A model generated the notes under the pieces. The model ran no database searches, was not told where the DNA came from, and was given only the letters and a program-made list of their open reading frames with translations. Below are positions 1 through 38,361 of a stretch of 38,361 bases of DNA, piece after piece (positions within the stretch are counted from its first letter, which is position 1; each line of letters begins with the position of its first letter). A program made the position numbers and the translations under genes. The stretch comes from a virus. The stretch is taken from IMG/VR virus record IMGVR_UViG_3300024343_000039; one strand, written 5' to 3'.

Positions 1-127
1 CATGCCATAAAACTCCTTGTCTATAGCCAGCCTGCTTCGCGACCTCATCCACCATCATCTGCTGTGCCTCCACATCACCAGACTCGACAGCTTTCATGTA
101 GTCGGAGTCTAGTTTCTCTGGCATGAA
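1..127. repeat. Terminal direct repeat, left copy (exact duplicate of 38235..38361)
   Basis: The string catgccataaaactcc...ctctggcatgaa is read identically at both ends of the window. The repeat falls in the middle of a coding frame. Confidence 0.95.
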
Positions 128-3100
128 CCTCTTCTGAGCCTCATACATTCCAGCGTGAGTGGTTTCCAATCCTTTTGCCTTGTCCCACAACCAGTGGTGC
201 GTGACATGCGCCCACACATCCCGTGGCACTTTCTGCCCACCTTCTGCAACACCTTGCAATAGACTAATGCTATTGTCGATTCGATTGAACATCTCCTCTC
301 GGACACGCTTGTCGCTAAATGTATCTTTTACCTTTCTCGCTAGATCTGCTTCCTTTGTCTTTAATGTTCCAACATCCGCTTTGCCAGTGAGCCAGAAATT
401 GATTTCAACTGCATCAATTGTCGGGGTGTTTCCAAGACCAAGAAGATGACTAATAAATCCCTTTTTCCCGGTGCTTACTCCATTCAGCAACTGTACAGCA
501 TCCAGCACCTGTTTGCTTTTCCCTTTGCTTTGGTTTAATTGATCAACTACCACGGGAATTTTTGACAGGTTTTTGTCTGAAAACACATTGAATGTTTTAA
601 ACCTATCATCGCCATATGCTTTTCTTACTTGTACCAGACCATCCCAGTCGGAAGCTGATGTAGTTCCAGCTTCTGCATTATCAAGTGCTACTTTACCCTC
701 TGGTGTTCCCAACCAATAAGCCGCAGCCTCCTCTGGTCTAATAGTCTTTTGTCCTGACTTGCCAGTATCAGTGAACAGGTCAGGAGGATTGAAATCAATT
801 CCTACCTTTGCTAGTTTGTCTCGCAATAGATCAACGCTAACAGCACCAGTTCCCTGTGATGCAACGGTCATTGCATACGCCTTCCACACATCTCTTGGGG
901 TCAATGATCCAGAGACCAATTTCTCTCGTTGTTTAGCAATGAAGTCTGCTACTGGAGTTAAATATTCTGGAAATGGGCCTAGTATTTTTGCCGCCATTTT
1001 CCTCGGAATAAAGTTCGTAGAATCCAATTCTTGCAATACCTCTGTTGGTGTTGCTTTTGAACCCTCAGGCATGAACCTCATCTGCGATGATACAGTGACT
1101 TGCTCTGGCTCCATCCACCCGATAGCATCCGCAGGATACGACTCCAGCATCGCCTTGGATGTGATGGGAATCAGCTTCTCATCCATCTCGTTGATCGCAA
1201 ACATCTGCTTGCCGTCTGCCCATCGTCCTTGAGCCTCCTGGGCGTTGGCTACGGGGTTGAGGTCTTCTGGGGAGATGCCCTCTGGCATGAAGCGGGTGGG
1301 GGTCTGCTCACCCTCTGGCATCGCTCGCTGGGCTTCTGGCATGCGGACTTGGCTTACTGCCTCGTAGCTGAACGGCATTGCTGCGTATTCGTCTGGTGAC
1401 ATTGGAATAGCCTTGCTGACGCGATCTGCACGGTAGGTGCGGTAGACATTGTCAGAGCTTTTCACACCATCCTCCAGAAGCATTGGGTTGAGGACAGCTT
1501 GCTCCTTCCTGTTGAGTAGACCAAACATCGTATTGATGAACTTCTTGCGCTCAGTTCCCTCGACCACACCATACTTTTGATTGAAATGCAGAATGCTGTC
1601 CTCTGTAGGACGGTTAAGATGGAAGTCCATCATCGCCTGTACATCTTGCAAAATAGCGTCAATATTTCCGCTGTACAGCTTCTTGCCACGCTTGCTCTGT
1701 GCGCGTTTCTTGATGTTCTCCTGAAGCTTGGTCACGGACATGAGTCCGTACAGGATGTTGCCGTCCTTGGAGATCGTCATCGCTACTGGCACAGCGTCAC
1801 GAATAGCTGCCTTCTGCGGAGCGTAGACCACCTTGCCAGACTTTAGGCGGGTGGTTGCAGGGAAGTTAATCATCACCATGCGCTGACCATCGCCCTGCTT
1901 GATAAGCTTGTTGGTCTGGCGAATCATCCGCTTCTGCTCGTTGTTGAACTTGTGCTTGGCTAACATCTCCGTCAGCACAGCATCTGACAACCAACCGGGT
2001 TGCAGCTCGCCCTCGTCGTCCACATACGCCTCACCCTTCTCTGGGACATAGTTGGACTCTCGACGCTTACGCATTGCCTCCACAGCGGTCAGACCAGCCA
2101 TTGCCCGGTCGATGTCCACCGATTTGTCAATGAAGACTGGTCGCCCGTCCTTGAGGATTGGCTTGTCGTTCTCATCCACTTGGATGAACGGGTGCATCAA
2201 CTCCATGTCGATTGCGTTAGCGGGATCGAACATGAGCGGTGCGCCAGAACCTTCCTTGTCGCTGATAAGCGGTTCAAACTGCCCCGGCATCACGCCAGAA
2301 CTGCGCCTGTTCATCTCACGGAACATCTTGTTGGCAATTGGGTTCTGCCTGATACCCTCCGCTCCCAAGATTCCATTGCCAGTAACCCACGCACCATCCT
2401 TGTCGATCATGCCACCGCTCTTGATGTGGAGGTCACGCAGGACGGGAATCTTAGGCAGTACAGTCTCCAGCACCGATCCAAGCTTTTTGCGAACTTCACC
2501 ACGGGCGGCAAGCGCACCAAGCTCACCAGTCTCTGCCATTGTCGCGTACTGGTCTGCGTGCTGGTCGATGAAGTATTCGACAGCAATCTTGTCGAGTGGG
2601 TACTCAACTCCAATTTCAGCATCGGTCATACCAGAGTCGCGGAGCCGCTTGTAGTAACCCTCCTTAAACTGGTTGAATTCTGGGTCAAGGTTTCCATCCT
2701 TTGACCTAAATAAACCGCCAACCGAGTTAGTCTTGGTATCACCCAAGAAAAGGGCTGCGATACCACCCTCCATGTTGTTCTTGATTAGCGTGTGGTGAAG
2801 CGTTTCGTGTGCCACCAATGCCTTTAGAGGGTTGTTGGAGTTGATGTTGATATTGGCGGTATTTGTGTTGATGTCGTAACCGCTGGTTCCAGAGTCAATA
2901 AAATTGTAGTTTAGAGTCGGGTTGGCAATGGAGTAAGTTGCCATCGACCTGCGAACCCCCGGAGGCAATGCCTCGTACAATGCCTTCTGTTTGGTGTCAG
3001 TTAGGTTGCGCCTGAAGTTAATCTCATCACCGATAGCAAGCTCGCGCATGCGCTTCTTGGTTCCCATGAACGCTCCACCACCTGCTGCAAATGATCCACC

Positions 3101-5167
3101 AATAACCAGTGATTCAGCCGCCGCACGGGTCATGGTTTCAGGGCGCATGTCAGCACCATCCGAAAGCCACTCAAACATGAGGTCTACGGGATACGCTGCG
3201 GCTATACCACGACCAGTTCTGCGGATGATGTCAGATGTCGCACCACCAAGCTCAAAGATATTAAATGTGTGGGCAATACCACGACCAAGAGATCCCGGTG
3301 CTGTATGTCTGTTAACACGCTTCCAGAATGGCATCTGTCCACGCGCATTTTCCATCTCCTTGCCAACATAGCGTAAAATCTTGCCGTACTCGGAGAGAAA
3401 CTTGCCAGTCTTGAGTGCAGCACCAGTGATGCCAATAGCACCAACCACTGGATTGCCTGCAAGTCCCACAATACCAGAGGCTCCAAGTGCTGCGTTGTAA
3501 GCCTGATCAAGACCACGATCCTTTAGATAATTAGTCACAGCATCATCAACCTTGGTGAGGGTATCACCAGTGCGTTCTAGAATGGAGCTAAAAGCCCTTG
3601 CTGGGGCGGATTGAATCCTGCGCCCAAGTTCTGTGGTCTGCATGACCTTCTGGGCATATCCCTCTGGGATGCGAGTAGCCAAGCTGTTGCGCTTTGCGGT
3701 CAACTCCTCCAGCGTACTCATTGCGGTTGGCATGGCGGCACGAACCTCGTCGGCACTAGCCGTGATTTTCCTTGCCTTATCCAGCACCTCGTTGGCTTGC
3801 ACCATAAGCTCTGGGTTTGCAGCAGACCTCGCCGAAATGTTCTGGAAGAGTTGCTGGTATCGTGGAACAAACAATGCCTCCTTCTTTAGAACTGCATTTC
3901 CAGCCTGCACAACAGCTTGAACATCTGCCAATGCAGATTCTGTTTTTGCCACACTCCCAAGTATTTTTTGTGCTCCAAGCTCCAAGCGTGATGCCAATGG
4001 AACAGACCCTGCTACCTTGAATGCAACACTTGCTGGGATAAGATTGATTGGATCAAATGCAAGTTCAGAAAAGGCTCCTACACCAGCATATCTCTTGTTA
4101 AATGCCTCTTCTCCAAGTGTGTTCTTAGCCTCTTGTGCCATGTTAACCGCGCCATCAAGACCAAGCACTGTCTCAGCAATCTGACCAACCTCAAAACTTT
4201 GAATGTCTCGATTCTGTTTCCATTGCCTTTGACGAGCGGCATACAAATCTCGTTCAGCCTCTGCGTCTTGTTGTTTCAGTGCCTCAACACCTTGGGTGTA
4301 CATTGGGACACCACCCGGCCCAACCATAGCAACATCTCCCTGTTGAAGTGTATCTGCAAGCGCAGCATATCCGACATCAGCTAGTCTTCCAATGTTAGCG
4401 AAATTCGTTGTGATTTTCTCAATGGCAGCAAGTTGATTTGCTTGAACTTCAGCTTGTAGCTTTTTACCTTCAGGTGTTCCAGTAAGCACATCAATTGCAC
4501 CCTTGACGCTCATGGCTTTTCCAGCTGTCTTGAAGTAGTCTCTAAATCCTCCAATTGCATCTGCCATAAAACCACCAGCAGCCTCAAGTTGCTCATCCCA
4601 AGTGGCACTTGGACGAATTACACCATCCTTCCACAAGACCTCAAACGCATCAAGGTTGGTTTCGTTCTCAAGGTCACGCTCGGACATTGAATACGCCTGA
4701 CCCTTTTTGGTCATCGTCCCGTCTTCGTTAAAAAGCCCGGACTCCTTTAGGTTGAAGAAAAGCTCTCCGCGAGGTGTGGCGTTGCCCTCGGCATCCACAA
4801 ACCCAATTGCCTTAAACTTGTTTCTGTCCAGAGGTTGAGAGAACAACTCGTTAGCGTTGCGATAGATCGTTCCGTCCTGCATCCGAAGTGCATCAACCTC
4901 AACGCGCCTAGCCTCGGCTTGAGGGTCAATAGATACCATGTCGGCAGGCTCCTGTTGCCTTAACTGTTCATATGCCCCTACAATGTCTGGAGCTTGTGCC
5001 TCCTCACCAACGGCAATTGGTTGGTTATACTCTTCCTGAAGAGTGTCGCTTACCTCAAGCTCGGTCTGACCAAGTGTTCTTGTAACATCAGAAAATAAAA
5101 GATCAATTCCGCTTTTTGCGTTTTTGTAAAATTCTGGCTTGTCTTCTTCTCGTACATTGATGGACAT
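1..5167 (-). CDS. Giant polyvalent virion/ejection protein, 5' part (codons 1-1722 of about 2401; open at the window edge, continues at 38234)
   Basis: Hand translation of the minus strand from ATG 5167 (MSINVREEDKPEFYKNAKSG...) has no stop down to base 1. It is missing from the ORF track only because it has no stop inside the window. All plus-strand ORFs here look like antisense shadows. Confidence 0.85.
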   Translation of the reverse strand, partial: MSINVREEDKPEFYKNAKSGIDLLFSDVTRTLGQTELEVSDTLQEEYNQPIAVGEEAQAPDIVGAYEQLRQQEPADMVSIDPQAEARRVEVDALRMQDGTIYRNANELFSQPLDRNKFKAIGFVDAEGNATPRGELFFNLKESGLFNEDGTMTKKGQAYSMSERDLENETNLDAFEVLWKDGVIRPSATWDEQLEAAGGFMADAIGGFRDYFKTAGKAMSVKGAIDVLTGTPEGKKLQAEVQANQLAAIEKITTNFANIGRLADVGYAALADTLQQGDVAMVGPGGVPMYTQGVEALKQQDAEAERDLYAARQRQWKQNRDIQSFEVGQIAETVLGLDGAVNMAQEAKNTLGEEAFNKRYAGVGAFSELAFDPINLIPASVAFKVAGSVPLASRLELGAQKILGSVAKTESALADVQAVVQAGNAVLKKEALFVPRYQQLFQNISARSAANPELMVQANEVLDKARKITASADEVRAAMPTAMSTLEELTAKRNSLATRIPEGYAQKVMQTTELGRRIQSAPARAFSSILERTGDTLTKVDDAVTNYLKDRGLDQAYNAALGASGIVGLAGNPVVGAIGITGAALKTGKFLSEYGKILRYVGKEMENARGQMPFWKRVNRHTAPGSLGRGIAHTFNIFELGGATSDIIRRTGRGIAAAYPVDLMFEWLSDGADMRPETMTRAAAESLVIGGSFAAGGGAFMGTKKRMRELAIGDEINFRRNLTDTKQKALYEALPPGVRRSMATYSIANPTLNYNFIDSGTSGYDINTNTANININSNNPLKALVAHETLHHTLIKNNMEGGIAALFLGDTKTNSVGGLFRSKDGNLDPEFNQFKEGYYKRLRDSGMTDAEIGVEYPLDKIAVEYFIDQHADQYATMAETGELGALAARGEVRKKLGSVLETVLPKIPVLRDLHIKSGGMIDKDGAWVTGNGILGAEGIRQNPIANKMFREMNRRSSGVMPGQFEPLISDKEGSGAPLMFDPANAIDMELMHPFIQVDENDKPILKDGRPVFIDKSVDIDRAMAGLTAVEAMRKRRESNYVPEKGEAYVDDEGELQPGWLSDAVLTEMLAKHKFNNEQKRMIRQTNKLIKQGDGQRMVMINFPATTRLKSGKVVYAPQKAAIRDAVPVAMTISKDGNILYGLMSVTKLQENIKKRAQSKRGKKLYSGNIDAILQDVQAMMDFHLNRPTEDSILHFNQKYGVVEGTERKKFINTMFGLLNRKEQAVLNPMLLEDGVKSSDNVYRTYRADRVSKAIPMSPDEYAAMPFSYEAVSQVRMPEAQRAMPEGEQTPTRFMPEGISPEDLNPVANAQEAQGRWADGKQMFAINEMDEKLIPITSKAMLESYPADAIGWMEPEQVTVSSQMRFMPEGSKATPTEVLQELDSTNFIPRKMAAKILGPFPEYLTPVADFIAKQREKLVSGSLTPRDVWKAYAMTVASQGTGAVSVDLLRDKLAKVGIDFNPPDLFTDTGKSGQKTIRPEEAAAYWLGTPEGKVALDNAEAGTTSASDWDGLVQVRKAYGDDRFKTFNVFSDKNLSKIPVVVDQLNQSKGKSKQVLDAVQLLNGVSTGKKGFISHLLGLGNTPTIDAVEINFWLTGKADVGTLKTKEADLARKVKDTFSDKRVREEMFNRIDNSISLLQGVAEGGQKVPRDVWAHVTHHWLWDKAKGLETTHAGMYEAQKRFMPEKLDSDYMKAVESGDVEAQQMMVDEVAKQAGYRQGVLWH
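2795..2809 (-). other. HExxH zinc-metallopeptidase motif (ALVAHETLHHTLI) inside the giant ORF
   Basis: The minus-strand codons CAC GAA ACG CTT CAC lie in the giant ORF frame. Only the short motif is seen. Confidence 0.4.
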
Positions 5168-5185
5168 TTTAAGAAATGTTATTGA

Positions 5186-6103
5186 TTATCTGCTGCGGTA
5201 ATAACTATTGATTTGATCTATTTGCTTATCTGGTTTTTTGTCTTCTTCTTTAGTTTTACCAGCATCAAAATCAATACTAAAATCAGCACCAGTGCTTTGC
5301 TTGTAAACATTTACCTTTTCCTTGATGTCTTCTTGGAAATTTTTAACAGCGGCCTTGGCCTTGTCTTCACTAGCAAAGAATCCAGTTGGAACCATGTACT
5401 TCTGCACCATTTCCACTTCTGACTCACGAACAACAGATGCCGGGTCAACAACCTTTGCGTATGATATGGCTAATTGATATGGAAGCTGACCCAACTTCGC
5501 CGCACTCTCCGGGTTTCCTAGTCTCGCGGATTCCCAAGTTCCATCCTTCTCAATAACATCTGAAAGTTGGTTTGCATACCGAATTGCAGAAGCCGCATTC
5601 TGCTCAAATGTCAAATCGGCGGCAGATTTTTTGTACTCTTCTTTGTCCGCTTGTGGTTGTGCCGCAAGAATGTTGTCTGCAACTTTTCGCGCCTCGTCCA
5701 CTTGACCAGTTCCAAGTAGATTTGAAATTGATTGGGTTACTTTCGGGTCAATGTTTATTCCTCTGTCTTGAGCCTGTTTGAATTTGGCTCCAAACTCGTT
5801 TGCTGTGGCTTGAATGAGTGCCGCTTTCTTTTGATCTTCCTGCTGCCTGTTCCTAAAAGATGCAACTTGGTTTTGCATCTCAATTGACTTGCCAAATAAT
5901 GATTTGAAATTACGCTCGGCTTCTGCTCTTACTTTTTTGTCGTTTGTGTTTTGAACGACATTAATTAATTGCTTGGCAGACATTTCCAATGCCATTGCCT
6001 CATTTTCCATTCCAGCTTCTTTTGCAAGCTGTATGGCTTTATCCATCTTCAGCCCATCAACATAAGCTGGAGAGTCCTTTCTGAGCAATTCTGATATTGG
6101 CAT
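5186..6103 (-). CDS. Hypothetical virion protein (possible internal/ejection protein), 305 aa
   Basis: ATG-initiated ORF, helical and charged, located between Gly/Gln-rich virion proteins and the giant ORF. No recognisable motif. Confidence 0.6.
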   Translation of the reverse strand: MPISELLRKDSPAYVDGLKMDKAIQLAKEAGMENEAMALEMSAKQLINVVQNTNDKKVRAEAERNFKSLFGKSIEMQNQVASFRNRQQEDQKKAALIQATANEFGAKFKQAQDRGINIDPKVTQSISNLLGTGQVDEARKVADNILAAQPQADKEEYKKSAADLTFEQNAASAIRYANQLSDVIEKDGTWESARLGNPESAAKLGQLPYQLAISYAKVVDPASVVRESEVEMVQKYMVPTGFFASEDKAKAAVKNFQEDIKEKVNVYKQSTGADFSIDFDAGKTKEEDKKPDKQIDQINSYYRSR

Positions 6104-6125
6104 ATTTTATGGTTATTAAATTAAA

Positions 6126-6563
6126 TCAAAAGTAGCCTCCAATTTGACTCCCATTACCACCGCCGCCGCCACCTTGAGATGCCGCGAACTTCTGTTGGCG
6201 AAGATTCATCATCTGCTGGCTCATAAGTCCGCTCATGCTGTTCTTGATAAGATCGGGGACAACTGATGCCTCCGCGAATCTATCGCTTAACGAGATGTCT
6301 TCATTTTTTAGATTATTACCGACATCTCCAAGAATTGGGGAAAGTTCTGGCATGAGTTTAAGAGCAGCCTCAATTTGAGTAGATGCTATCTTAACCTGCT
6401 TCTTCTTCTCCCCCTGCTCCTTGAAGTAGTCGCCTACTTGGTATACCATTCCAGCCATCCCCTGCGCTCCAGTCATGGCTAGTTCCCTAGCAGCAGCTAC
6501 GGAAGGCCCATAGTCTGGAGCTTGGTATGGTGTAGTTTGTACTTGTCCTGCGAATAGTGCCAT
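6126..6563 (-). CDS. Hypothetical virion protein with a poly-Gly C-terminus, 145 aa
   Basis: ATG start, tight packing with neighbours, ends in the GGGGGGNGSQIGGYF tail. Confidence 0.6.
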   Translation of the reverse strand: MALFAGQVQTTPYQAPDYGPSVAAARELAMTGAQGMAGMVYQVGDYFKEQGEKKKQVKIASTQIEAALKLMPELSPILGDVGNNLKNEDISLSDRFAEASVVPDLIKNSMSGLMSQQMMNLRQQKFAASQGGGGGGNGSQIGGYF

Positions 6564-6567
6564 AATT

Positions 6568-7605
6568 TTAGATGTAGCTATAATTTACATTTCCCCAAGG
6601 GCTTTGTGCGGTTTGCATTCCAGCTCCTCCGCCAGCACCGCCAAAGTTAAATCCACCACCACCCATATTCATTCCAGCACCCATCATGGAGCTTCCAATG
6701 CTACTCCACATTTGTGCCTTTGCTTGTTGGTTGGCGAGGTTGGTCTGGTAGTTCGCTTGGTTTTGTTGGTTCTGCGCTCCAGCAAATTGCTGGGCGAAGT
6801 TAAGCGGCATGTTGTAGTCAAAGTCTCCAGATGACGCAGGGCCAAGTGTGAGTGCCGTCCTGAGATCCTGCTGACCAGCACCATATGACAATGGAGCGTT
6901 ACGCAACGCTTGAAGGCCGGGGTTGGTGTAAAACTCGCCAGCAAGGGCATATGATTGCTTTTCCGCCTGTGCTGCCTCTGCACGCTTCCGTGCCATGATG
7001 TCTTCTCGACCCATTATCTCTGCGGCCATTGCAGAGTTGCCACCAAGGCGACCAGACGCTTGTGCGGATTCTCTAGCGGTCTGCTGGTACATGCGTTGTT
7101 CCTCTGGAGTCACGCCTTGAGCAGATGCCCTTGCCCTAGCTGCCTCCTGCGCTGAACCCTGTACCGCAGCAGCTTGTTCTGGCGAAAGTGCGGCCATGAA
7201 ATCACGGGTCATTCCTGTTTGACCAGTCATTTGAGCCAATTCCTCTGCACGAAGTTGCGCTATAGTTTTTCCAGCTTCACTACCAGTTGTTCTCTGGAGT
7301 GCTTGGAAGCCCGGTTGTCCATTTACCCCGCCAAGGAACTGACCAGTCTGGTCAAACATTTGACCCATTATCTGCGGCCCATACTCAGCACTCGTCTGAA
7401 GTGCCAATGGAATAGCCATAGGATAATAGTTTTGGAAAAGACCAGTAGCTTGCCTTTCAGCAACACTTGGGCCACCTTTTTTACCTCTTTTAAATATATC
7501 AATTGGTGCAGGTGGGCCTCCACCCTTTCCTGCTTGAGATGCACCATATACTGATGCGGCGGCTCCAGCAACTGCTGCCCCACCTCCAATTATCGCCATG
7601 CTCAT
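6568..7605 (-). CDS. Gly/Ala/Gln-rich internal virion protein, 345 aa
   Basis: N-terminal hydrophobic IIGGGAAVAGAAASVYG, low-complexity Q/N/G C-terminus, ATGA overlap with the upstream gene. Confidence 0.6.
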   Translation of the reverse strand: MSMAIIGGGAAVAGAAASVYGASQAGKGGGPPAPIDIFKRGKKGGPSVAERQATGLFQNYYPMAIPLALQTSAEYGPQIMGQMFDQTGQFLGGVNGQPGFQALQRTTGSEAGKTIAQLRAEELAQMTGQTGMTRDFMAALSPEQAAAVQGSAQEAARARASAQGVTPEEQRMYQQTARESAQASGRLGGNSAMAAEIMGREDIMARKRAEAAQAEKQSYALAGEFYTNPGLQALRNAPLSYGAGQQDLRTALTLGPASSGDFDYNMPLNFAQQFAGAQNQQNQANYQTNLANQQAKAQMWSSIGSSMMGAGMNMGGGGFNFGGAGGGAGMQTAQSPWGNVNYSYI

Positions 7606-11794: not shown

Positions 11795-11836
11795 GAATTA
11801 TATAAGGTTAAAACCCGCGCCTTGCAGGCATATCTC

Positions 11837-11865
11837 CAAATGCGGAGGGAATTACCATGCGTCAA
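11837..11865 (-). promoter_or_regulatory. Promoter-like element TTGACG-N17-CATTTG containing TAATTCCCTCC (copy A of a shared element)
   Basis: About 21 of 27 positions are identical to 28142-28170. Both copies lie 40-70 nt upstream of the first gene of a structural block and are preceded by a G5/C5 run. Confidence 0.45.
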
Positions 11866-12284
11866 GGGGGAACTTGTGGGGTTGACAGGGTGCTAGTCAA
11901 CCAACAGCATCCAACCAACAACACCTCCCACGCCTCTCTACGATGCGCACCAAGGGAGGTTGCTTTTTATCCTGTGTAGCTCAGCGGCACCATCAGTCCA
12001 GCGTAAGTAAAGTGCCACCCACGGGTTCGCGTGCCGAGTACCAAACGCTCTTGCAGAGGCGCGGGGTGGTAGTGTCAAGTTGCAGGGGGAACGCTAACTT
12101 GGCAAGTTCCCAGTCGGGAACATTGGGTGGGAATGGATGGGATTGGATGAAGATGTGCGTGATCGGGAATAGGCCCTTTGTACAATTTTTGAAGGGGGGG
12201 TTAATCGTCCCCGCTTTTTTCGTCGTCGGAAATTTCGACCCCCTCCCCCCTACTACTTGTTACAATGTGTATAATGCGGAGTTC

Positions 12285-12329
12285 TGTTCCACGGGATTGC
12301 CCAGCATCTATCGGTGTTCCACGGGATTG
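12285..12329. repeat. Two perfect 15-bp direct repeats TGTTCCACGGGATTG (12285-12299, 12315-12329)
   Basis: Read directly; 30-bp periodicity, within the long non-coding region. Confidence 0.9.
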
Positions 12330-12371
12330 GGTGGTCTCCAATCTGTAATCAACCCGTTAGTTGGTGGTCTC
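12330..12371. repeat. Two copies of GGTGGTCTC (12330-12338, 12363-12371)
   Basis: Read directly; 33-bp spacing. Shares the GGTCTC core with the iteron-like repeats at 14159-14240. Confidence 0.85.
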
Positions 12372-12540
12372 AACACTAGATATGGTGGTGGTGCTCGACC
12401 CTCGCGTGCGTGTTGACGATTCTTTCGCGGAAAGTGCGAACGATTCCCAGCCCTCTGTCCCTTGATTCCTGTCCCAAATCCCTACTTCGCACCAGAATGC
12501 CCTGTATGCTCTTTGCCCTATCATATGGAGTCAGCACCCA

Positions 12541-12577
12541 CAAGAAAGCCCCAGACGCTGTGTGAGCGATTCTGGGG
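12541..12577 (-). terminator. Rho-independent terminator downstream of the DnaB-like gene
   Basis: On the minus strand: CCCCAGA-AT-CGCT-CACAC-AGCG-TCTGGGG followed by CTTTCTTG. Confidence 0.6.
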
Positions 12578-12628
12578 CAATCTAGAGGGTATCTGGCGCG
12601 GTTTGGTGGAGGATGTTGGCTGTAGAGG

Positions 12629-27056: not shown

Positions 27057-28100
27057 TTATTGCATTTTTGCAACTCTGGCGGCAATCCAGTCATCAACGG
27101 ATGTTGACGATTGAAACTTTTGATAGGCTTGATCGGCACTCTTCTTCGCTGTTTTAGGCCCAGACTTAGCGGCTCCAGCACCATACGGGGTTCCCGGCAC
27201 TTTGGCCTTGGAGATTGTTCCCGCTGCTTTTACTGCTACTTTGGACTTCTGACTGCGATGAATGGATCGGACTGCGTGGGCTAGAATGTATGGGAGTTGC
27301 GGCCCAAGGTCTGGAACATGCAGGTTAACCAGCTCAACGAGTGGGTCAGCTAGGAGTGCCTTGTATTGTTTACCAATATCAGATTCCTCGTCGGCAACCT
27401 CTGGGACTTCCTGCGGGATCAATCCCGTGAAGTGTTCCCGCGCCTGCTCGCGTTGTCCTCGTTTGGCGAGTTCCGCGTGTTGGGCTGGGAGGTATTTTGC
27501 CATTGCCTCCCGCGCATTGCGGTTAGCTCGACGGATCTCCTTTTTGGTAAACTCCTTGTCTCCCACGACGATGATGTCTTCGGCACCGTAGTCTTCGTGT
27601 TCCTCAAGGATATTGTCGGTTTCCTGCGCGACCTTCTCCAGCTCCGCAAACTTGGACTGAAGACCCTCCACAGACTCAATGTCTCTGAATGGGTTTTCTT
27701 CCTGCGGTATGACTGGTAGTGGTTTCGTTTGGGCCTGAGAACTCAGCTTTTCCTCAAGAGCTTTTTTCTGCGCGGTCAACTCACCCACGCGATGGAGCAA
27801 CCTGCTGCGACTCTTTTTGGCTAAAGCTTGAAGTTGCTCTGGGTTTAGCGACAACAAGTCTACTTCCTGTTCCTCTTCGCCTTCTTCCTCTTCTACTTCC
27901 TCGTCGGACTCATCTAGTTCGTCGGAAACTGCCTCTGGCTCCAGAGACTCTTCCGTTTCCTCCCAAGATTCATCCTCTGGTTCAGCAGCCTCGGCTTCTG
28001 GTTCAGAGATTTCCTGACTCCTTCGATTGATATAATCATCAAAAGATATGTTAGACGAGGGATTTTGGGCTTCCTCGGTAGCCTCGGATTGCACATTCAT
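27057..28100 (-). CDS. Scaffolding protein, 347 aa from ATG 28100
   Basis: Highly acidic N-terminal third (EPEAEAAEPEDESWEETEESLEPE...), helical, immediately upstream of the capsid gene. The listed start at 28145 is TTG. Confidence 0.6.
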   Translation of the reverse strand: MNVQSEATEEAQNPSSNISFDDYINRRSQEISEPEAEAAEPEDESWEETEESLEPEAVSDELDESDEEVEEEEGEEEQEVDLLSLNPEQLQALAKKSRSRLLHRVGELTAQKKALEEKLSSQAQTKPLPVIPQEENPFRDIESVEGLQSKFAELEKVAQETDNILEEHEDYGAEDIIVVGDKEFTKKEIRRANRNAREAMAKYLPAQHAELAKRGQREQAREHFTGLIPQEVPEVADEESDIGKQYKALLADPLVELVNLHVPDLGPQLPYILAHAVRSIHRSQKSKVAVKAAGTISKAKVPGTPYGAGAAKSGPKTAKKSADQAYQKFQSSTSVDDWIAARVAKMQ

Positions 28101-28141
28101 GTTTTTGACACCAGTTAACGCCCGGCGGCGGCGATGACCTA

Positions 28142-28170
28142 GCAATGTGGAGGGAGTTAATATAAGTCAA
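28142..28170 (-). promoter_or_regulatory. Promoter-like element TTGACT-N17-CATTGC containing TAACTCCCTCC (copy B of the shared element)
   Basis: Shares TTGAC-NN-AT-NN-TAA-N-TCCCTCC-N-CATT with 11837-11865. Lies 42-70 nt upstream of scaffold ATG 28100. Confidence 0.45.
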
Positions 28171-30169: not shown

Positions 30170-30271
30170 TCAATTTATCAATTTAATTATGGTTCCAAAA
30201 ACAGCAATAGGGAAAACAATCAACGAATAAATCATCCAAATTTTTTCCCCAAGTTTTGTTTGTATTTTCAT
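30170..30271 (-). CDS. Unlisted 33-aa membrane peptide (MKIQTKLGEKIWMIYSLIVFPIAVFGTIIKLIN)
   Basis: ATGA overlap with the upstream gene; a single hydrophobic helix. Confidence 0.4.
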   Translation of the reverse strand: MKIQTKLGEKIWMIYSLIVFPIAVFGTIIKLIN

Positions 30272-30933
30272 CTTGTTGGTTTGTAGCTGAACATTCGGCT
30301 CGCCGCATCAATTGCTTGTTCTTTTTTAATTGTGCTTGGAGTCACAAATGGAACTTCACGGGATGATTGGGGTCTGTCAACAGAATTCTTTCCAGCCTCA
30401 ATTTCTTTAAGCATTTTGCGTGTTCCCTGCCAATATCTCATTAAGGCTCCACCAGTTGCAATGGGATGCTCAAACGCAAGAAGACCCGTTGCGACCCCCT
30501 GAGCTACAGATGGACTAACCCAATTAGGCATTTTCTTTCCATATATTTTGGGGTCATTTTCAAGTTGTTCAATTGCCCTTAAATGTTTTTTCCTGTATTC
30601 ATCGTCAACTAATGCCCTGCCAGCATCAATTCCCCATAATGCCGCTTGTAACGGCTCAAACTTAGAAGCTATCAAAGTTGTGGTAGCCAAAGGTTTTAAG
30701 ATCGCAGCAGGAGCATTTAATGCGCTTAATCCTTTTGATGCCCCGTATGCACCAGATCCAATGTTTGCAATTCTTTGATCTATATCAGCAATTCCTCCGA
30801 CAATTTTATCTACTAATCCTGTTCTTTGGATTGATGTATCATCGCCGGGATCTGGCGTTACTCTCGCTACATTATCGGGATTGATGCTTTCAAGCCAATT
30901 TTTGGTTTTTGCTAATGATGTTTTAACATTCAT
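30268..30933 (-). CDS. Hypothetical protein downstream of the portal gene, 221 aa
   Basis: ATG-initiated ORF with no recognisable motif. Confidence 0.55.
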   Translation of the reverse strand: MNVKTSLAKTKNWLESINPDNVARVTPDPGDDTSIQRTGLVDKIVGGIADIDQRIANIGSGAYGASKGLSALNAPAAILKPLATTTLIASKFEPLQAALWGIDAGRALVDDEYRKKHLRAIEQLENDPKIYGKKMPNWVSPSVAQGVATGLLAFEHPIATGGALMRYWQGTRKMLKEIEAGKNSVDRPQSSREVPFVTPSTIKKEQAIDAASRMFSYKPTR

Positions 30934-36195: not shown

Positions 36196-38361
36196 TCACT
36201 TCAGATTCTTTAGCTTTTCGATCTCGTTTGCAAGAGCATTTTCTTCGCTTTTTACCTCTTCGATCTGACTTTTGATCGTTTTTTCTGCGCTTTTATTTTC
36301 AGCCGTGGCAATTGACGCAGTCAAACTCTGGATTTTTTTCTGTCTCGCTGACAATTTCGACTTGAGCTTTTGAATTTCCTTTTGACGCAACTCTTTGGCT
36401 TTCTGCTTCTTGAGCCTCAATTCTCTATTTTCAGCAATTTTGCTAAGTTTGGCCTTCGTGTATTTTTCCACCTTCAATGGAATTTCTGCGTACTTTTTCA
36501 TGGCTCCAAGAACAGTTTCTTCGGAACCTTCTTTGACGCTCGCTTTGGGGTGTTTTGACCTATAGTCCGGGAATAACTCTTCTGGCTTTAATGTAGAAGA
36601 TGCAAGGAAGTTGTCTGCATTATCTGGGCCAAGCATCATCCAGTCAAACGCTTCATGTTCAACAAAATCAGGATTAGCTCTCAATGCATCTCTAACTTGT
36701 TTTTCTTGTGGAGACATTGCTGCTTCCTCTTTAGGATCATTGCCAAAGTATACAGCGAAAATATCTTTGTTTTTAGATAATTGAACCGCTCCAACAATAT
36801 CCATATTCTCACCTCCCTTGAAATCTTCTGTTTTACGAAGAATATCGGATGGGTTAAATGATCCAGCGGTAATTCCAATAAGCCCCTTGATTGCAGCACC
36901 TCTGGACTGGAATGTATTTCCAATGTTGTCCATGATTGCTAAAGAAGATGATTTCTCACTTAATTTTTTGAACGCGTACTCATGTTCTGTATTTTTATTC
37001 AAATAATCGCGCAACCTTTGTTTGGAATTATCAAGTGCTTTTTGAGTGCCGTTATTGTTATCAAGTCTTGTTTGTGCTGTTTTGATTTTTGAAATCAATT
37101 GAGCTATTTCAGCGTCAATTCCAGTCCAAGACAATGCATCTCTATCGGCAAACAAGCTTTGAATGTTAGCTTTGATTTTTTGAGATTCGATATCAGAAAG
37201 ACTTTCATCTTTTAATTTGTTTTGTTGCTGTTGAATCTTAACTGAAATTGAGCTTTTCTGTTGCGCTGTAATTGCGGCCTGCATAGCAACTGACACTACT
37301 CTCTGATCGTACTCTGATAGTTTTGCCTTATCCCAAGCTGCTTGCATTGTTCTGGCAATTCGTTTATTAGATGCGTGAGCAATTGGATCCATGATGTGGA
37401 TCAAGGCATATTCCGCATTGTCATTAAACCATCTATTTTTTGTTCCAGTAACAAATGTTGATGTCATGTTTGCCCAAATAGCTTTGTATTTCTTTCCGTC
37501 TGGGCCTACAACTGATACTTGATTTGACCGCAAGAATGGGTGCATTGGCCCACCCATATCCCCACCAGTTGCTCTCATCCTGTCAGCTTCTAGGATAATA
37601 ACATTTTTTCCAGCAAGCGTTTTGCGTAAATCTTTAAACTCCGGCCTCACGAGATATGCTGGGTCATAGTTAAAATACATTCTTTCCCCATTTGGGTGCT
37701 GGATATAAACCTTGGCTGGTTTACTATAATCAAATTCTCCTTCATTTGCTTCAAAGTTAATTACAGTTGAGTCAATGTCTGGAATGGTGTCAGTTCGTGA
37801 TAGTGGTTTTTTTGTTGGCACATCACCCTCAGGCATATACCGAATATCCTTACTCCCCACATCAAACCGCTTGCTCAACGGGATGACTTTGCCAGAGTCG
37901 TCGCGGGTGATTGGGTCTGCGGATTTGATTTGGTTGGAATCAAATACAATAAATTCTTGTTTCCCCGCATTAGTTTGCGGGGTTCCAATTACTGAATCAT
38001 ACCCTTGTTTTTGAATCTCTTTTTTGCGTGCTGGTGTAATTGCAGAATAAGAATAATCACCAGCATCAAGAATCAATGGATTATCCATTTTAAGATAAGC
38101 ACCTAAAACATTACTACCCATTGCACTAGCAATGTTTTTATCTGGTGAGAAATAATGACCTACACTACCTTCCATCCAAGGTAGTCTATCTCCTTTAGTT
38201 TCATCAAAAACCGTAAATTTTTTACCTCTTGATCCATGCCATAAAACTCCTTGTCTATAGCCAGCCTGCTTCGCGACCTCATCCACCATCATCTGCTGTG
38301 CCTCCACATCACCAGACTCGACAGCTTTCATGTAGTCGGAGTCTAGTTTCTCTGGCATGAA
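36196..38361 (-). CDS. Giant polyvalent virion/ejection protein, 3' part (listed as a 720-aa ORF; in frame with 1..5167 across the terminal overlap)
   Basis: ATG 38358 is the same base as ATG 124, which is an internal Met of the 5167 frame (5167-124 = 3 x 1681). The frame is still open at 38361. TGA stop at 36196-36198. Lys/Glu-rich coiled-coil-like C-terminus. Confidence 0.85.
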   Translation of the reverse strand, partial: FMPEKLDSDYMKAVESGDVEAQQMMVDEVAKQAGYRQGVLWHGSRGKKFTVFDETKGDRLPWMEGSVGHYFSPDKNIASAMGSNVLGAYLKMDNPLILDAGDYSYSAITPARKKEIQKQGYDSVIGTPQTNAGKQEFIVFDSNQIKSADPITRDDSGKVIPLSKRFDVGSKDIRYMPEGDVPTKKPLSRTDTIPDIDSTVINFEANEGEFDYSKPAKVYIQHPNGERMYFNYDPAYLVRPEFKDLRKTLAGKNVIILEADRMRATGGDMGGPMHPFLRSNQVSVVGPDGKKYKAIWANMTSTFVTGTKNRWFNDNAEYALIHIMDPIAHASNKRIARTMQAAWDKAKLSEYDQRVVSVAMQAAITAQQKSSISVKIQQQQNKLKDESLSDIESQKIKANIQSLFADRDALSWTGIDAEIAQLISKIKTAQTRLDNNNGTQKALDNSKQRLRDYLNKNTEHEYAFKKLSEKSSSLAIMDNIGNTFQSRGAAIKGLIGITAGSFNPSDILRKTEDFKGGENMDIVGAVQLSKNKDIFAVYFGNDPKEEAAMSPQEKQVRDALRANPDFVEHEAFDWMMLGPDNADNFLASSTLKPEELFPDYRSKHPKASVKEGSEETVLGAMKKYAEIPLKVEKYTKAKLSKIAENRELRLKKQKAKELRQKEIQKLKSKLSARQKKIQSLTASIATAENKSAEKTIKSQIEEVKSEENALANEIEKLKNLK
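37909..38331 (-). other. ADP-ribosyltransferase-like module inside the giant ORF
   Basis: Helical lead-in KAVESGDVEAQQMMVDEVAKQAGY, then VLWHGS...FTVFD...GHYFSPD...AYLKMDNP...GYDSVIG...QEFIVFDSNQIKSA. This gives H / Y / E spacing and the QIKSA ending I recall from ART domains of phage and plasmid polyvalent proteins. Confidence 0.5.
38235..38361. repeat. Terminal direct repeat, right copy (exact duplicate of 1..127)
   Basis: Same 127-nt string as bases 1-127. Consistent with the overlap left when a circular or terminally redundant assembly is linearised. Confidence 0.95.

What the first reader, a model, noticed from the sequence alone, without database searches (positions are those of the whole stretch)
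1..5167. A 2,401-codon ORF is split by the contig ends and missing from the ORF track
No credible ORF is listed for 128-5167, although every other gene is on the minus strand. Reading the minus strand by hand from ATG 5167 (first codon bases at coordinates equal to 1 mod 3) gives an uninterrupted, protein-like translation (MSINVREEDKPEFYKNAKSGIDLLFSDV...) that is still open at base 1. An ORF caller that needs a stop inside the window cannot report it. Bases 1-127 equal 38235-38361. The listed 720-aa ORF starts at ATG 38358, which is the same base as ATG 124, and 5167-124 = 5043 = 3 x 1681. On the circular molecule this is therefore one ORF of 1681 + 720 = 2401 codons (about 7.2 kb, roughly 19% of the genome) ending at 36196. 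It follows the putative internal-virion genes. It has Gly/Ala-rich hydrophobic stretches (for example GIVGLAGNPVVGAIGITGAAL, about 3405-3487) followed by enzyme-like modules. That is the layout expected of an ejected polyvalent effector fused to an ejection protein.
Basis: partly seen in the sequence, partly recalled or inferred. Interest (0 to 1): 0.9.

Follow-up and report, generated by a model that had tools for sequence, protein, structure and literature searches.

The report
Giant cassette-built phage effector protein
The two ends of this circular phage contig join into one real 2,401-codon gene: a conserved 1,285-residue core followed by four swappable cassettes (one is an ADP-ribosyltransferase) separated by a short repeated peptide, most likely a protein carried in the virion and sent into the host with the DNA.

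Summary
Bases 1-127 equal 38235-38361. The minus-strand frame from ATG 5167 has no stop. On the 38,234-bp circle it gives one ORF of 2,401 codons ending at 36196. Relatives in freshwater metagenomes carry the same gene intact in mid-contig, between the tail-fibre genes and terS. The protein is a polyvalent protein. Its core (aa 1-1285) has an invariant HExxH...E signature and Gly/Ala hydrophobic segments. Four C-terminal cassettes follow: M2, M19, M1 (Pfam ART-PolyVal) and M4. Every cassette boundary carries the peptide R-x-M-P-E: 151 copies in the family's variable regions against 1.3 expected, and none in the cores. Cassettes are 93-98% identical in DNA between phages whose cores are only about 72% identical, and the homology breaks at the motif. 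The close family has no cysteine in 111,427 residues. Delivery through the virion and proteolytic processing at the motif are inferred, not shown. No known family matches the core, M19 or M4. Verdict: a real gene and a new variant of the polyvalent or polymorphic effector theme. The junction motif, the absence of cysteine and a conserved C-terminal peptide did not turn up in my literature searches.

The parts
1..5167 (-). 5' part of the giant ORF (aa 1-1722; ATG at 5167-5165)
   Evidence: No stop in 1,722 codons. The translation is homologous to P0001-P0054.
36196..38361 (-). 3' part of the giant ORF (aa 1681-2401 plus stop at 36196-36198). 38235-38361 duplicates 1-127.
   Evidence: The 720-aa ORF 36196-38358 is listed.
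1..127 (.). Terminal overlap, copy 1. It is identical to 38235-38361 and marks circular closure.
   Evidence: Exact 127-nt overlap. I read the length as the assembler's k-mer (my inference). It starts on the FMPE codons of the M19/M1 junction.
38235..38361 (.). Terminal overlap, copy 2
1313..5167 (-). Conserved core, aa 1-1285, shared by all family members
   Evidence: BLAST maps q1 to about q1285-1300 in 54 homologues. A phmmer search of 1.84e9 representatives gave 205 hits, many of them core-only proteins of about 1,150-1,200 aa.
3413..3493 (-). Gly/Ala-rich hydrophobic segment, aa 559-585 (AALGASGIVGLAGNPVVGAIGITGAAL)
   Evidence: Kyte-Doolittle 19-residue window, peak 1.54. The glycines are invariant in the family.
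3992..4051 (-). Second hydrophobic segment, aa 373-392
   Evidence: peak 1.4.
2468..3070 (-). Putative zincin-like metallopeptidase region, aa 700-900. HExxH is at aa 787-791 (2795-2809) and the distal Glu is E864 (2576-2578).
   Evidence: H787, E788, H791 and E864 are invariant in 16 sequences of 29-50% identity and HExxH is kept in most distant relatives. The AF2 topology is helix, 3-strand sheet, HExxH helix, Glu helix, with pLDDT about 60-88. No profile or fold match is significant.
1280..1327 (-). Junction motifs at the end of the core: RAMPE (aa 1281-1285) and RFMPE (aa 1292-1296)
   Evidence: DNA homology to P0001's gene ends at nt 3891, which is aa 1297.
1064..1279 (-). Cassette M2, aa 1297-1368 (72 aa), ending in RFMPE (1064-1078)
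   Evidence: Cluster M2 occurs in 19 proteins. It is 87-98% identical in DNA in many loci whose cores are about 73% identical.
116..1063 (-). Cassette M19, aa 1369-1684 (316 aa), all-alpha, function unknown, ending in RFMPE (116-130)
   Evidence: AF2 pLDDT is 70-92. Homologues include P0055, P0067-P0086 and MW202675, where it is fused to InPase. L025 is 93.6% identical over aa 1294-1683.
37828..38349 (-). Cassette M1, aa 1685-1858: N-terminal helix, ART-PolyVal domain (aa 1719-1829 = 37915-38247), C-terminal tail ...IPLSKRFDVGSKDIRYMPE (motif at 37828-37842)
   Evidence: Pfam PF18760, 48.6 bits against a gathering score of 31.2. Flank conservation is shown. L020 is 97.8% identical in DNA.
36196..37827 (-). 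Terminal cassette M4, aa 1859-2401 (543 aa) plus stop: beta-rich subdomain, long helices, C-terminal coiled coil (about 36199-36456). Function unknown.
   Evidence: Cluster M4 occurs in 11 proteins and is always the last cassette. AF2 pLDDT is 60-93. L036 is 94.9% identical in DNA. No characterised fold match.
5186..7605 (-). Three cysteine-free ORFs just upstream (345, 145 and 305 aa). They are candidate co-ejected or internal proteins.
   Evidence: No family hits. They have 0 Cys, as do their counterparts in L001 and L005.

Best explanation
This is one late gene of a roughly 38-kb freshwater phage, probably podovirus-like with an SU10-type capsid protein. It encodes a polyvalent protein. SHOWN: a conserved core of about 1,285 residues carries Gly/Ala hydrophobic segments and an invariant HExxH...E signature. 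Four autonomous cassettes follow (M2, M19, an ART-PolyVal ADP-ribosyltransferase cassette, and M4). Each cassette boundary carries R-x-M-P-E, and cassettes are exchanged between diverged phages exactly at that motif. INFERRED: the core is the structural or ejection part, which is built into the virion and inserts into the envelope. The cassettes are cargo, threaded unfolded through the tail into the cell at infection, which would explain the total absence of cysteine. The junction peptide has two roles. It is the microhomology 'handle' for cassette swapping. It is also a flexible processing or linker site where the string of effectors is cut, by the core's own zincin-like domain or by another protease, so that the ART and the unknown effectors act separately on host targets early in infection.
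For: Real single gene. Polyvalent class: ART-PolyVal is above Pfam's gathering score. M19 relatives are fused to InPase, GNAT and ART. The ART cassette shares its N-terminal helix and its ...GNVIPLSxRF...DIR[YF] tail with classical polyvalent proteins of 2.8-4.0 kaa. Late or virion context: the gene lies after the 828-aa tail protein and the fibre genes and before terS-terL-portal-scaffold-MCP, and this synteny holds in L001-L006. MW202675 has an M19-InPase protein just downstream of its portal gene. Core as carrier: 205 representative clusters match the core, many are core-only at about 1,150-1,200 aa and others carry extensions of 200-1,460 aa. Junction motif: 151 copies in 44,968 aa of variable regions against 1.34 expected (maximum 4 in 200 shuffles), and 0 in 68,860 aa of cores. 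Splitting at the motif gives coherent clusters: 48 clusters and 85 architectures in 130 proteins. The Arg is encoded by five main codons across both codon families (CGC 34, AGG 27, CGG 26, CGA 12, AGA 9), so selection acts on the peptide. The motifs fall where pLDDT is low or dropping, at the edges of or between confident domains. Exchange: cassettes are 93.6-97.8% identical in DNA while cores are 72-74% identical, and HSP ends fall at aa 1294, 1355-1374, 1678-1683 and 1853-1864. Cysteine: 0 in 2,401 aa against 0.82% in the other ORFs examined (P = 3e-9), 0 in 111,427 aa of close homologues, and 15 in 196,902 aa of distant ones. The upstream ORFs and the scaffold-position ORF are also Cys-free. 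Zincin: H787, E788, H791 and E864 are invariant and the predicted topology fits the MPTase description in PMC5512222. That paper proposes MPTase-mediated processing of polyvalent proteins.
Against: There is no direct evidence of virion incorporation, ejection or cleavage. No PHROG, Pfam, NCBIfam or PDB match links the core or the upstream ORFs to known internal-virion proteins. The zincin assignment has no significant profile or fold support: the best Foldseek hit is ArdC 6i89 at E = 0.66, and the model's mean pLDDT is 50. Core-only relatives keep HExxH although they have no cassettes to release, so the peptidase, if it is active, has some other primary role. P0055 uses the same junction motif seven-fold but has no core and no HExxH, which argues against obligatory cleavage in cis by the core. 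The F, P and E codons of the motif are biased (TTC, CCA, GAG), so a DNA-level role alone could explain part of the conservation. M19 and M4 have no predicted function. The catalytic acid of the ART is not securely aligned.
Confidence: 0.6

Rival explanations
1. Beads on a string with no proteolysis. R-x-M-P-E is only a flexible linker and a recombination handle. The protein works as one intact multi-enzyme polypeptide, whether or not it is virion-borne.
For: Homology breakpoints lie exactly at the motif, and the FMPE codons are biased towards TTC-ATG-CCA-GAG, a 12-nt microhomology. P0055 has the motif but no peptidase signature. N4 vRNAP and ArdC are reported to be delivered unprocessed (PMC5512222).
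Against: The Arg is kept through five main codons in two unrelated codon families, and M, P and E are nearly invariant. That is peptide-level selection beyond what a passive linker or a DNA handle needs. A related element, hydrophobic residue-P-[E/N/D]-G, already ends the core in core-only relatives that have nothing to recombine.
Confidence: 0.3
2. The protein is processed, but by a protease other than the core's HExxH domain: either a host protease after entry, or a capsid-maturation-type protease that cuts after Glu. The M-P-E sequence resembles the hydrophobic-x-Glu sites I recall for T4 gp21 and its relatives.
For: P0055 lacks HExxH yet carries seven motifs. The motif ends in an invariant acidic residue (E 218, D 13 of 231).
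Against: No prohead protease was recognisable in the ORFs between portal and MCP. The MCP is 332 aa and has a separate scaffold-position ORF, so it shows no obvious propeptide. Outside the giant, the motif occurs once in the other ORFs, KLMPE in the 145-aa ORF.
Confidence: 0.15
3. The protein is not an injected effector carrier. It is an external or tail-associated structural protein whose variable C-terminal cassettes determine host range, or a protein that acts in the cytoplasm of the producing cell.
For: The gene follows the tail-fibre genes. Modular exchange is also typical of receptor-binding proteins. M4 has a long coiled coil.
Against: ART-PolyVal, InPase-linked and GNAT-linked cassettes are intracellular enzyme types. 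No beta-helix, lectin or fibre families were detected. The fibre ORFs beside it contain cysteines while this protein and all its cassettes have none. Classical polyvalent proteins share the ART cassette flanks.
Confidence: 0.1
4. The closure is an assembly artefact. The 127-nt overlap joins two strain variants, or collapses a repeated cassette start, so the true gene has a different or an extra cassette between M19 and M1.
For: The contig break lies exactly on a junction where variants co-occur: P0085 and P0068 have a 99%-identical M19 followed by other cassettes. Some family members carry two copies of the M1-type N-terminal helix (P0029).
Against: The frame is preserved with no stop. The overlap extends into ART-variant-specific sequence. 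The M19 to M1 join is seen on separate metagenome contigs in P0070. The genome length of 38.2 kb matches related contigs of 38.7-40 kb.
Confidence: 0.06

Closest known systems
Polyvalent proteins of phages and conjugative elements (Iyer, Burroughs, Anand, de Souza, Aravind 2017; PMC5512222)
   Same: It is a very large multidomain protein encoded among virion or late genes. It contains ART-PolyVal (PF18760). The ART cassette has the same N-terminal helix and the same ...GNVIPLSxRF...DIR[YF] tail as classical polyvalent proteins. An HExxH domain is proposed there as the processing peptidase.
   Different: The 1,285-aa core matches no Pfam, PHROG or NCBIfam model. The cassettes are bounded by a family-wide R-x-M-P-E peptide, which the paper does not mention, whereas the classical proteins end the ART tail in DIR[YF]S. 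Most cassettes (M2, M19, M4, M3 and others) belong to no described LPD family.
MuF-type phage polymorphic toxins (Jamet et al. 2017; PMC5576092)
   Same: A conserved N-terminal phage morphogenesis or virion domain carries a variable C-terminal toxin or effector.
   Different: No MuF domain was detected. There are several cassettes in series, not one toxin. No immunity-like gene follows, since terS is next.
Bacterial polymorphic toxins: CdiA with the VENN motif and Rhs with PxxxxDPxGL (Zhang et al. 2012; PMC3482391). The motif roles are from my own knowledge.
   Same: A short conserved peptide marks the boundary between constant and variable parts. It coincides with recombination breakpoints, and in Rhs it is also a self-cleavage site. 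The variable parts are more similar between strains than the carriers are.
   Different: Here the motif is repeated between two to six cassettes in one polypeptide. The carrier is a phage protein. No immunity genes or orphan cassettes are seen in the window.
T4 Alt and internal proteins IPI-III (from my own knowledge; T4 ARTs are reviewed in PMC10468400)
   Same: T4 Alt is an ADP-ribosyltransferase packaged in the head and injected with the DNA to act on host proteins at once. The T4 proteins are trimmed at short x-x-Glu sites.
   Different: The T4 proteins are separate small proteins, each with an N-terminal capsid-targeting peptide cut by the prohead protease gp21. Here there is one giant fusion and no recognisable prohead protease.
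Podovirus ejection or internal core proteins: T7 gp14-16 and P22 gp7, gp16, gp20 (PMC8402733 for P22)
   Same: The gene lies next to tail genes. The core-only form is 1,150-1,300 aa, close to the roughly 1,300 aa I recall for T7 gp16. There are hydrophobic segments, and a run of small Cys-free ORFs lies upstream.
   Different: No sequence or fold similarity was detectable. No transglycosylase domain was found. There is a C-terminal effector string.

Membership tests
Polyvalent proteins (Iyer et al. 2017) | Large single polypeptide that combines several unrelated globular domains and is encoded by a phage or mobile element | tested here: met
   The protein is 2,401 aa with a core and four cassettes. 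AF2 gives confident models of M19 and M4, while M2 and M1 were modelled at low confidence. The phage context is shown.
Polyvalent proteins (Iyer et al. 2017) | Contains domains of the polyvalent-protein domain network (for example ART-PolyVal, InPase, LPDs) | tested here: met
   PF18760 ART-PolyVal, E 1.8e-12, 48.6 bits against a gathering score of 31.2. M19 relatives are fused to PF18823 InPase and to GNAT.
Polyvalent proteins (Iyer et al. 2017) | Zincin-like MPTase domain (HExxH helix plus a downstream Glu helix on a 3-strand sheet) | tested here: inconclusive
   H787, E788, H791 and E864 are invariant and the predicted topology is compatible. There is no Pfam hit, the PDB profile search was empty and the best Foldseek hit is ArdC at E = 0.66.
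Polyvalent proteins (Iyer et al. 2017) | Delivered into the recipient cell together with the DNA | not testable with these tools
   This needs virion proteomics or infection assays. Only indirect support exists: late-gene position and the absence of cysteine.
ART-PolyVal (PF18760) ADP-ribosyltransferases | Profile match above the curated threshold | tested here: met
   aa 1719-1829 match model positions 8-134 of 140.
ART-PolyVal (PF18760) ADP-ribosyltransferases | Intact catalytic residues (His in an H-G-S/T motif, an aromatic-x-S/T motif, and a catalytic acid) | tested here: inconclusive
   LWHGS (H1723) and HYFS are present and shared by 14 of 21 M1 cassettes. The acidic residue (E1816 in QEFIVFD) is not consistently aligned across variants.
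Known podovirus internal-virion or ejection protein families (T7 gp14-16, P22 gp7/16/20 types) | Sequence or profile homology to a described internal-virion protein family | tested here: not met
   There were 0 PHROG families for the giant and none for the three upstream ORFs. NCBIfam and PDB searches were empty.
Known podovirus internal-virion or ejection protein families (T7 gp14-16, P22 gp7/16/20 types) | Gene lies in the tail/ejection module, and the protein is large with membrane-active segments | tested here: met
   The gene follows the tail and fibre genes. Hydrophobic Gly-rich segments are at aa 373-392 and 559-585. In the related phage Venkman, large unannotated ORFs of 290-606 aa occupy this post-fibre position; I read them as possible ejection proteins. 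C75C1 has an unrelated 2,769-aa ORF there.
MuF polymorphic toxins | N-terminal MuF (SPP1 gp7-like) domain | tested here: not met
   There is no MuF-family Pfam hit in the query or in 22 homologues.
Polymorphic toxin systems (CdiA/Rhs type) | Cognate immunity gene immediately downstream of the variable toxin | tested here: not met
   Downstream there are 227 nt and then terS. Relatives have only a Cys-free 80-aa ORF there, or none.

The most novel reading that the evidence does not exclude
The giant gene encodes a bacteriophage 'polyprotein'. It would be loaded into the capsid as one chain by means of its conserved core and a conserved C-terminal peptide. It would then be threaded cysteine-free through the tail and cut at each R-x-M-P-E site, releasing a strain-specific mix of effectors. 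The same peptide-coding sequence would serve as the universal splice point that lets phages trade effector cassettes. That would make it a self-contained, plug-and-play delivery system for anti-host effectors, not yet described for tailed phages.
Probability: 0.3. Interest if true: 0.8.

Novelty: new variant of a known kind. Interest (0 to 1): 0.6.

Why it matters
Polyvalent proteins are predicted to be the first proteins a phage deploys against its host. How they are packaged, processed and diversified is largely conjecture. This family offers concrete handles that can be tested. The first is a defined junction peptide, which is a candidate cleavage site and a proven recombination boundary. 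The second is a defined carrier with an invariant metallopeptidase-like signature. The third is a conserved C-terminal peptide. The fourth is the absence of cysteine, which points to translocation in an unfolded state. The family also exposes about 48 cassette families, almost all with no known function, that are being exchanged at high rate among freshwater phages. They are a ready catalogue of candidate anti-defence or host-takeover effectors. There is a practical lesson too. Assemblers break exactly at these junctions and ORF callers miss origin-spanning genes, so such genes are systematically under-annotated in viromes.

Tried and rejected
- PHROGs, NCBIfam and PDB sequence searches with single sequences and with profiles A2, A3 and A4 gave nothing usable for the core, M2, M19 or M4.
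- The Foldseek search of the core model against the PDB was not significant. ArdC, jannalysin and PprI appear only at E of 0.66 or worse.
- The Foldseek searches of the variable-region model against the PDB and BFVD returned only two uncharacterised uncultured-phage proteins.
- The search for homologous proteins with the zincin-region alignment A4 returned nothing, not even family members, so I treat that as a tool null.
- GenBank phages hold no near relative. Megablast gave no match. tblastn found only MW202675, for M19.
- I looked for a prohead protease among the ORFs between portal and MCP and found none.
- I considered that the invariant ATG in the motif is an internal translation start. 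I rejected this because the conserved Arg is often CGC or CGA, which is not Shine-Dalgarno-like, the spacing would be about 3 nt, and P and E are conserved as amino acids.
- I considered a purely DNA-level recombination site. I rejected it as the sole explanation because of the synonymous Arg codon diversity.
- I considered an N4-like virion RNA polymerase or a tape-measure-like protein. No family or fold support was found.
- I checked whether the giant ORF of the nearest named phage, C75C1, is homologous. It is not.
- A literature search for the motif strings found nothing relevant.


Full report
**1. Observation**

The window is 38,361 nt. Its first 127 nt are identical to its last 127 nt, and no longer overlap exists. 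The minus-strand frame that starts at ATG 5167 stays open for 1,722 codons to the left edge. After one repeat copy is removed, the 38,234-bp circle holds a single stop-to-stop frame of 2,407 codons. The ORF from ATG 5167 is 7,206 nt (2,401 aa plus stop) and ends at 36196.

The ORF lister shows only short plus-strand ORFs and one 104-aa minus-strand ORF in 128-5167, plus the 720-aa tail fragment 36196-38358. That follows from its rule against ORFs that run off an end.

**2. The gene is real and not a product of circularisation**

A search of 5.8 billion proteins returned 54 proteins of 1,571-2,628 aa. They match the first roughly 1,285-1,385 residues at 54-87% identity and parts of the C-terminal half in varying combinations.

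Their contigs are freshwater metagenomes, some of 38.7-40 kb. They carry the gene intact in mid-contig in the same neighbourhood. The order is an 86-aa ORF, a tail protein of 821-899 aa, fibre genes, two or three small ORFs, the giant gene, terS, terL, a 691-aa portal-position ORF, a scaffold-position ORF, and an SU10-type MCP. The window has the same order.

M1 and N4 of the protein are invariant in 23 aligned sequences, which supports the start codon.

The contig ends sit exactly on the F-M-P-E codons of the junction between cassettes M19 and M1. The same join occurs on separate metagenome contigs in P0070 (82% identity, contiguous over aa 1352-1860) and in P0068. P0085 has a 99%-identical M19 followed by a different cassette. 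The assembler therefore probably stopped at a real population-level branch point. The closure is very likely right, but it should be checked with reads.

**3. Anatomy**

*Core, aa 1-1285.*
- It has two moderately hydrophobic, Gly/Ala-rich segments (aa 373-392 and 559-585).
- The block aa 490-1270 is very highly conserved.
- In 16 sequences of only 29-50% identity, the invariant residues include H787, E788, H791 and E864. This is an HExxH motif plus a Glu 73 residues downstream.
- HExxH is retained in most distant relatives.
- An AlphaFold model of aa 701-1285 is poor overall (mean pLDDT 50). In its better part (pLDDT about 60-88) it shows helices, a three-stranded sheet, the HExxH helix and a later helix bearing E864. 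This is the topology described for polyvalent-protein MPTases (PMC5512222).
- No profile or fold search confirms the assignment, so I call it a putative zincin.
- A phmmer scan of 1.84 billion representatives with aa 490-1285 found 205 clusters. Many are core-only proteins of about 1,150-1,200 aa. Others carry C-terminal extensions of up to about 1,460 aa. The core is therefore the ancestral unit and the extensions are add-ons.

*Variable part, aa 1286-2401.* The peptide [RK]-x-M-P-[ED] occurs at aa 1281, 1292, 1364, 1680 and 1854, and nowhere else in the protein. The only other copy in the genome is one KLMPE in the 145-aa upstream ORF.

- In 55 family proteins there are 151 copies in 44,968 aa of C-terminal regions, against 1.34 expected from shuffles (maximum 4). 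There are none in 68,860 aa of cores.
- Cutting at the motif yields coherent cassettes that recur in different orders and combinations. The first set gave 37 clusters. A larger set of 130 proteins gave 341 cassettes, 48 clusters and 85 architectures.
- The query reads core, M2 (72 aa), M19 (316 aa), M1 (174 aa), M4 (543 aa).
- The consensus is [Q/D]-x-R-[F>Q,Y,L,A]-M-P-E-[G/K/P].
- The model of aa 1298-2401 has confident domains for M19 (all-alpha, pLDDT 70-92) and M4 (60-93). The motifs fall where pLDDT is low or dropping, at the edges of or between these domains.

**4. Cassette exchange**

Compared with P0001's gene, DNA homology (85%) runs from nt 8 to 3891 and from nt 5031 to 7011. It breaks at aa 1297 and resumes at aa 1678, the two motif positions that flank the differing middle cassettes.

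Against 55 IMG/VR loci, single cassettes of the query are far more similar than the cores of the same genes:

| Locus | Cassette | Cassette DNA identity | Core DNA identity |
|---|---|---|---|
| L020 | M1 | 97.8% | 72.7% |
| L036 | M4 | 94.9% | 72.3% |
| L025 | M2+M19 | 93.6% | 73.5% |
| L055 | M1 | 95.2% | 72.4% |
| L029 | M2 | 97.3% | 73.6% |

The alignments end at aa 1294, 1355-1374, 1678-1683 and 1853-1864, which are the motif positions. Cassettes are therefore moving horizontally between diverged phages, with the junction as the breakpoint.

At the motif, Arg is encoded by CGC (34), AGG (27), CGG (26), CGA (12), AGA (9) and CGT (1). F, P and E favour TTC, CCA and GAG. The peptide itself is under selection, and a microhomology of about 12 nt is also kept.

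**5. What the cassettes are**

- **M1.** It matches Pfam ART-PolyVal above threshold. M1-type cassettes share an N-terminal helix (KLDxDYMKAVExGD..QQ.VDE.AK.AGY) and a C-terminal tail (IKSADPITRDDSGNVIPLSKRFD..S.DIR[YF]MPE) around a variable middle. That middle is an ART with a [WYF]H[GS][ST] motif in 14 of 21 cases. Classical polyvalent proteins of 2.8-4.0 kaa (P0056-P0064) have the same helix and tail, but their tail ends in DIR[YF]S. This ties the family firmly to the polyvalent-protein world and suggests that the R-aromatic part of the junction is older than the M-P-E part.
- **M19.** Its relatives are fused to InPase (in MW202675, just downstream of the portal gene), to GNAT and to ART domains.
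- **M2, M19 and M4.** They have no Pfam, NCBIfam, PDB or characterised Foldseek match.
- **Homologues.** Across 22 of them Pfam recognised only ART-PolyVal, DUF7178 and Phage_L5_gp82, apart from two marginal single-protein hits that I discount.

**6. Absence of cysteine**

- The giant protein has no cysteine in 2,401 residues. The other 31 ORFs examined average 0.82%, which gives P = 3e-9.
- The 54 close homologues have none in 111,427 residues. The 141 more distant relatives have 15 in 196,902 residues. P0055 also has none.
- The three ORFs just upstream and the scaffold-position ORF are also Cys-free, here and in L001 and L005. The tail, fibre, portal and terminase ORFs do contain cysteine.

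From general knowledge, avoidance of cysteine is typical of proteins that are exported unfolded through narrow conduits or across an oxidising periplasm. I take it as indirect support for passage through the tail and envelope.

**7. Ends of the protein**

Of 55 family proteins, 42 end in Lys. The 14-residue peptide KGN[AS]SAIANAAKLK closes proteins whose last cassette belongs to at least seven different clusters. The query ends in ...KLKNLK.

Core-only relatives end their core with a sequence of the type N-x-(hydrophobic residue)-P-[E/N/D]-G, at the position where the cassette-bearing subfamily has SQVRMPEAQR[AQ]MPEG. The junction peptide therefore looks derived from the original C-terminal end of the carrier.

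**8. Mechanism**

*Shown:* a real origin-spanning gene; a polyvalent architecture; an ART domain; a junction motif selected at the peptide level; recent cassette exchange at that motif; no cysteine.

*Inferred:*
- (i) The core is the virion or ejection component. This rests on gene position, the size of the core-only forms, the hydrophobic glycine-rich segments and the absence of cysteine.
- (ii) The cassettes are cargo delivered at infection.
- (iii) The junction is both a recombination handle and a processing or linker site.

Against cis-processing by the core's zincin there are two facts. Core-only relatives keep HExxH. P0055 carries seven junction motifs but has no HExxH, and no core homologue lies in the 18.8 kb of its contig that I could see. 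I put cleavage at the motif at about 0.4, virion delivery at about 0.65 and the overall account at 0.6.

**9. Comparison and novelty**

The class was described by Iyer et al. in 2017. The carrier-plus-variable-effector logic is that of MuF toxins, and the boundary motif is reminiscent of VENN in CdiA and DPxGL in Rhs.

Several things are new as far as I could search (the library is limited):
- this carrier family;
- a repeated, family-wide junction peptide between several cassettes in one chain;
- quantitative evidence of recent cassette exchange;
- the complete absence of cysteine;
- the shared C-terminal peptide.

I rate it a new variant of a known kind, with interest 0.6.

Noticed in passing
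window 11924-11960 (+), inside the gene-free gap 11795-12628: Rfam abiF RNA motif (RF03085) at 47.5 bits against a gathering score of 37. It lies on the strand opposite to all genes, in a stretch of about 830 bp between dnaB and the 86-aa ORF. The 157-aa plus-strand 'ORF' 11943-12416 there translates to Cys/Gly/Ser-rich sequence that does not look like protein. It is 47% identical over 72 aa to the equivalent region of L005. It is therefore probably conserved non-coding DNA or RNA, possibly a phage-borne decoy related to an abortive-infection system.
   Followed up: partly
L008 (phage C75C1, OQ984151.1) 38751..39484 + 1..7576: The nearest named phage (MCP 56% identical) also has a giant ORF (2,769 aa) that crosses its record origin, just after a tail-fibre gene. 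It is unrelated in sequence to the window's giant. It contains about ten repeats, each marked by Y-x-(L/A/M)-P-(D/E)-F-x-V. The locus after the fibre genes seems to host different giant proteins in this phage group.
   Followed up: partly
window 5186-7605 and 27057-28145; L001 5166-6917; L005 8601-9985: The small ORFs just upstream of the giant gene and the scaffold-position ORF are entirely free of cysteine, here and in relatives. The tail, fibre, portal and terminase ORFs are not.
   Followed up: partly
C-termini of P0005-P0054 and window 36199-36225: A shared extreme C-terminal peptide (KGN[AS]SAIANAAKLK, or variants ending in LK or MK) closes family proteins whatever cassette comes last. 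It may be a packaging or docking signal.
   Followed up: partly
P0066, P0084, P0086, P0087 (short metagenome contigs): On short metagenome contigs the predicted gene often starts at the Met of the R-x-M-P-E motif. I read this as contigs breaking at cassette junctions, which would fragment these genes and leave them under-called in public assemblies. I did not check the contig ends.
   Followed up: partly
L005/L006 16936-19479: The large terminase of a related phage is 847 aa, against 532 aa here, and carries an intein (PF14890). An HNH endonuclease gene and a 268-aa ORF with 12 Cys and a faint PAPS_reduct hit are also inserted in that relative and absent from the window.
   Followed up: no
window 30268-30933 (-): A 221-aa ORF directly after the portal-position gene has no counterpart of that size in L001 or L005, which have several ORFs of 60-80 aa there. 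It has no family hit. It may be window-specific, or an over-long call.
   Followed up: no
L065 1163-8833 (P0055): A 2,556-aa protein in an unrelated phage-like contig is built from seven cassettes, including M3-, ART- and M19-type ones, separated by the same R-F-M-P-E motif. It has no core, no HExxH and no cysteine. The cassette system is therefore not confined to this carrier family.
   Followed up: partly
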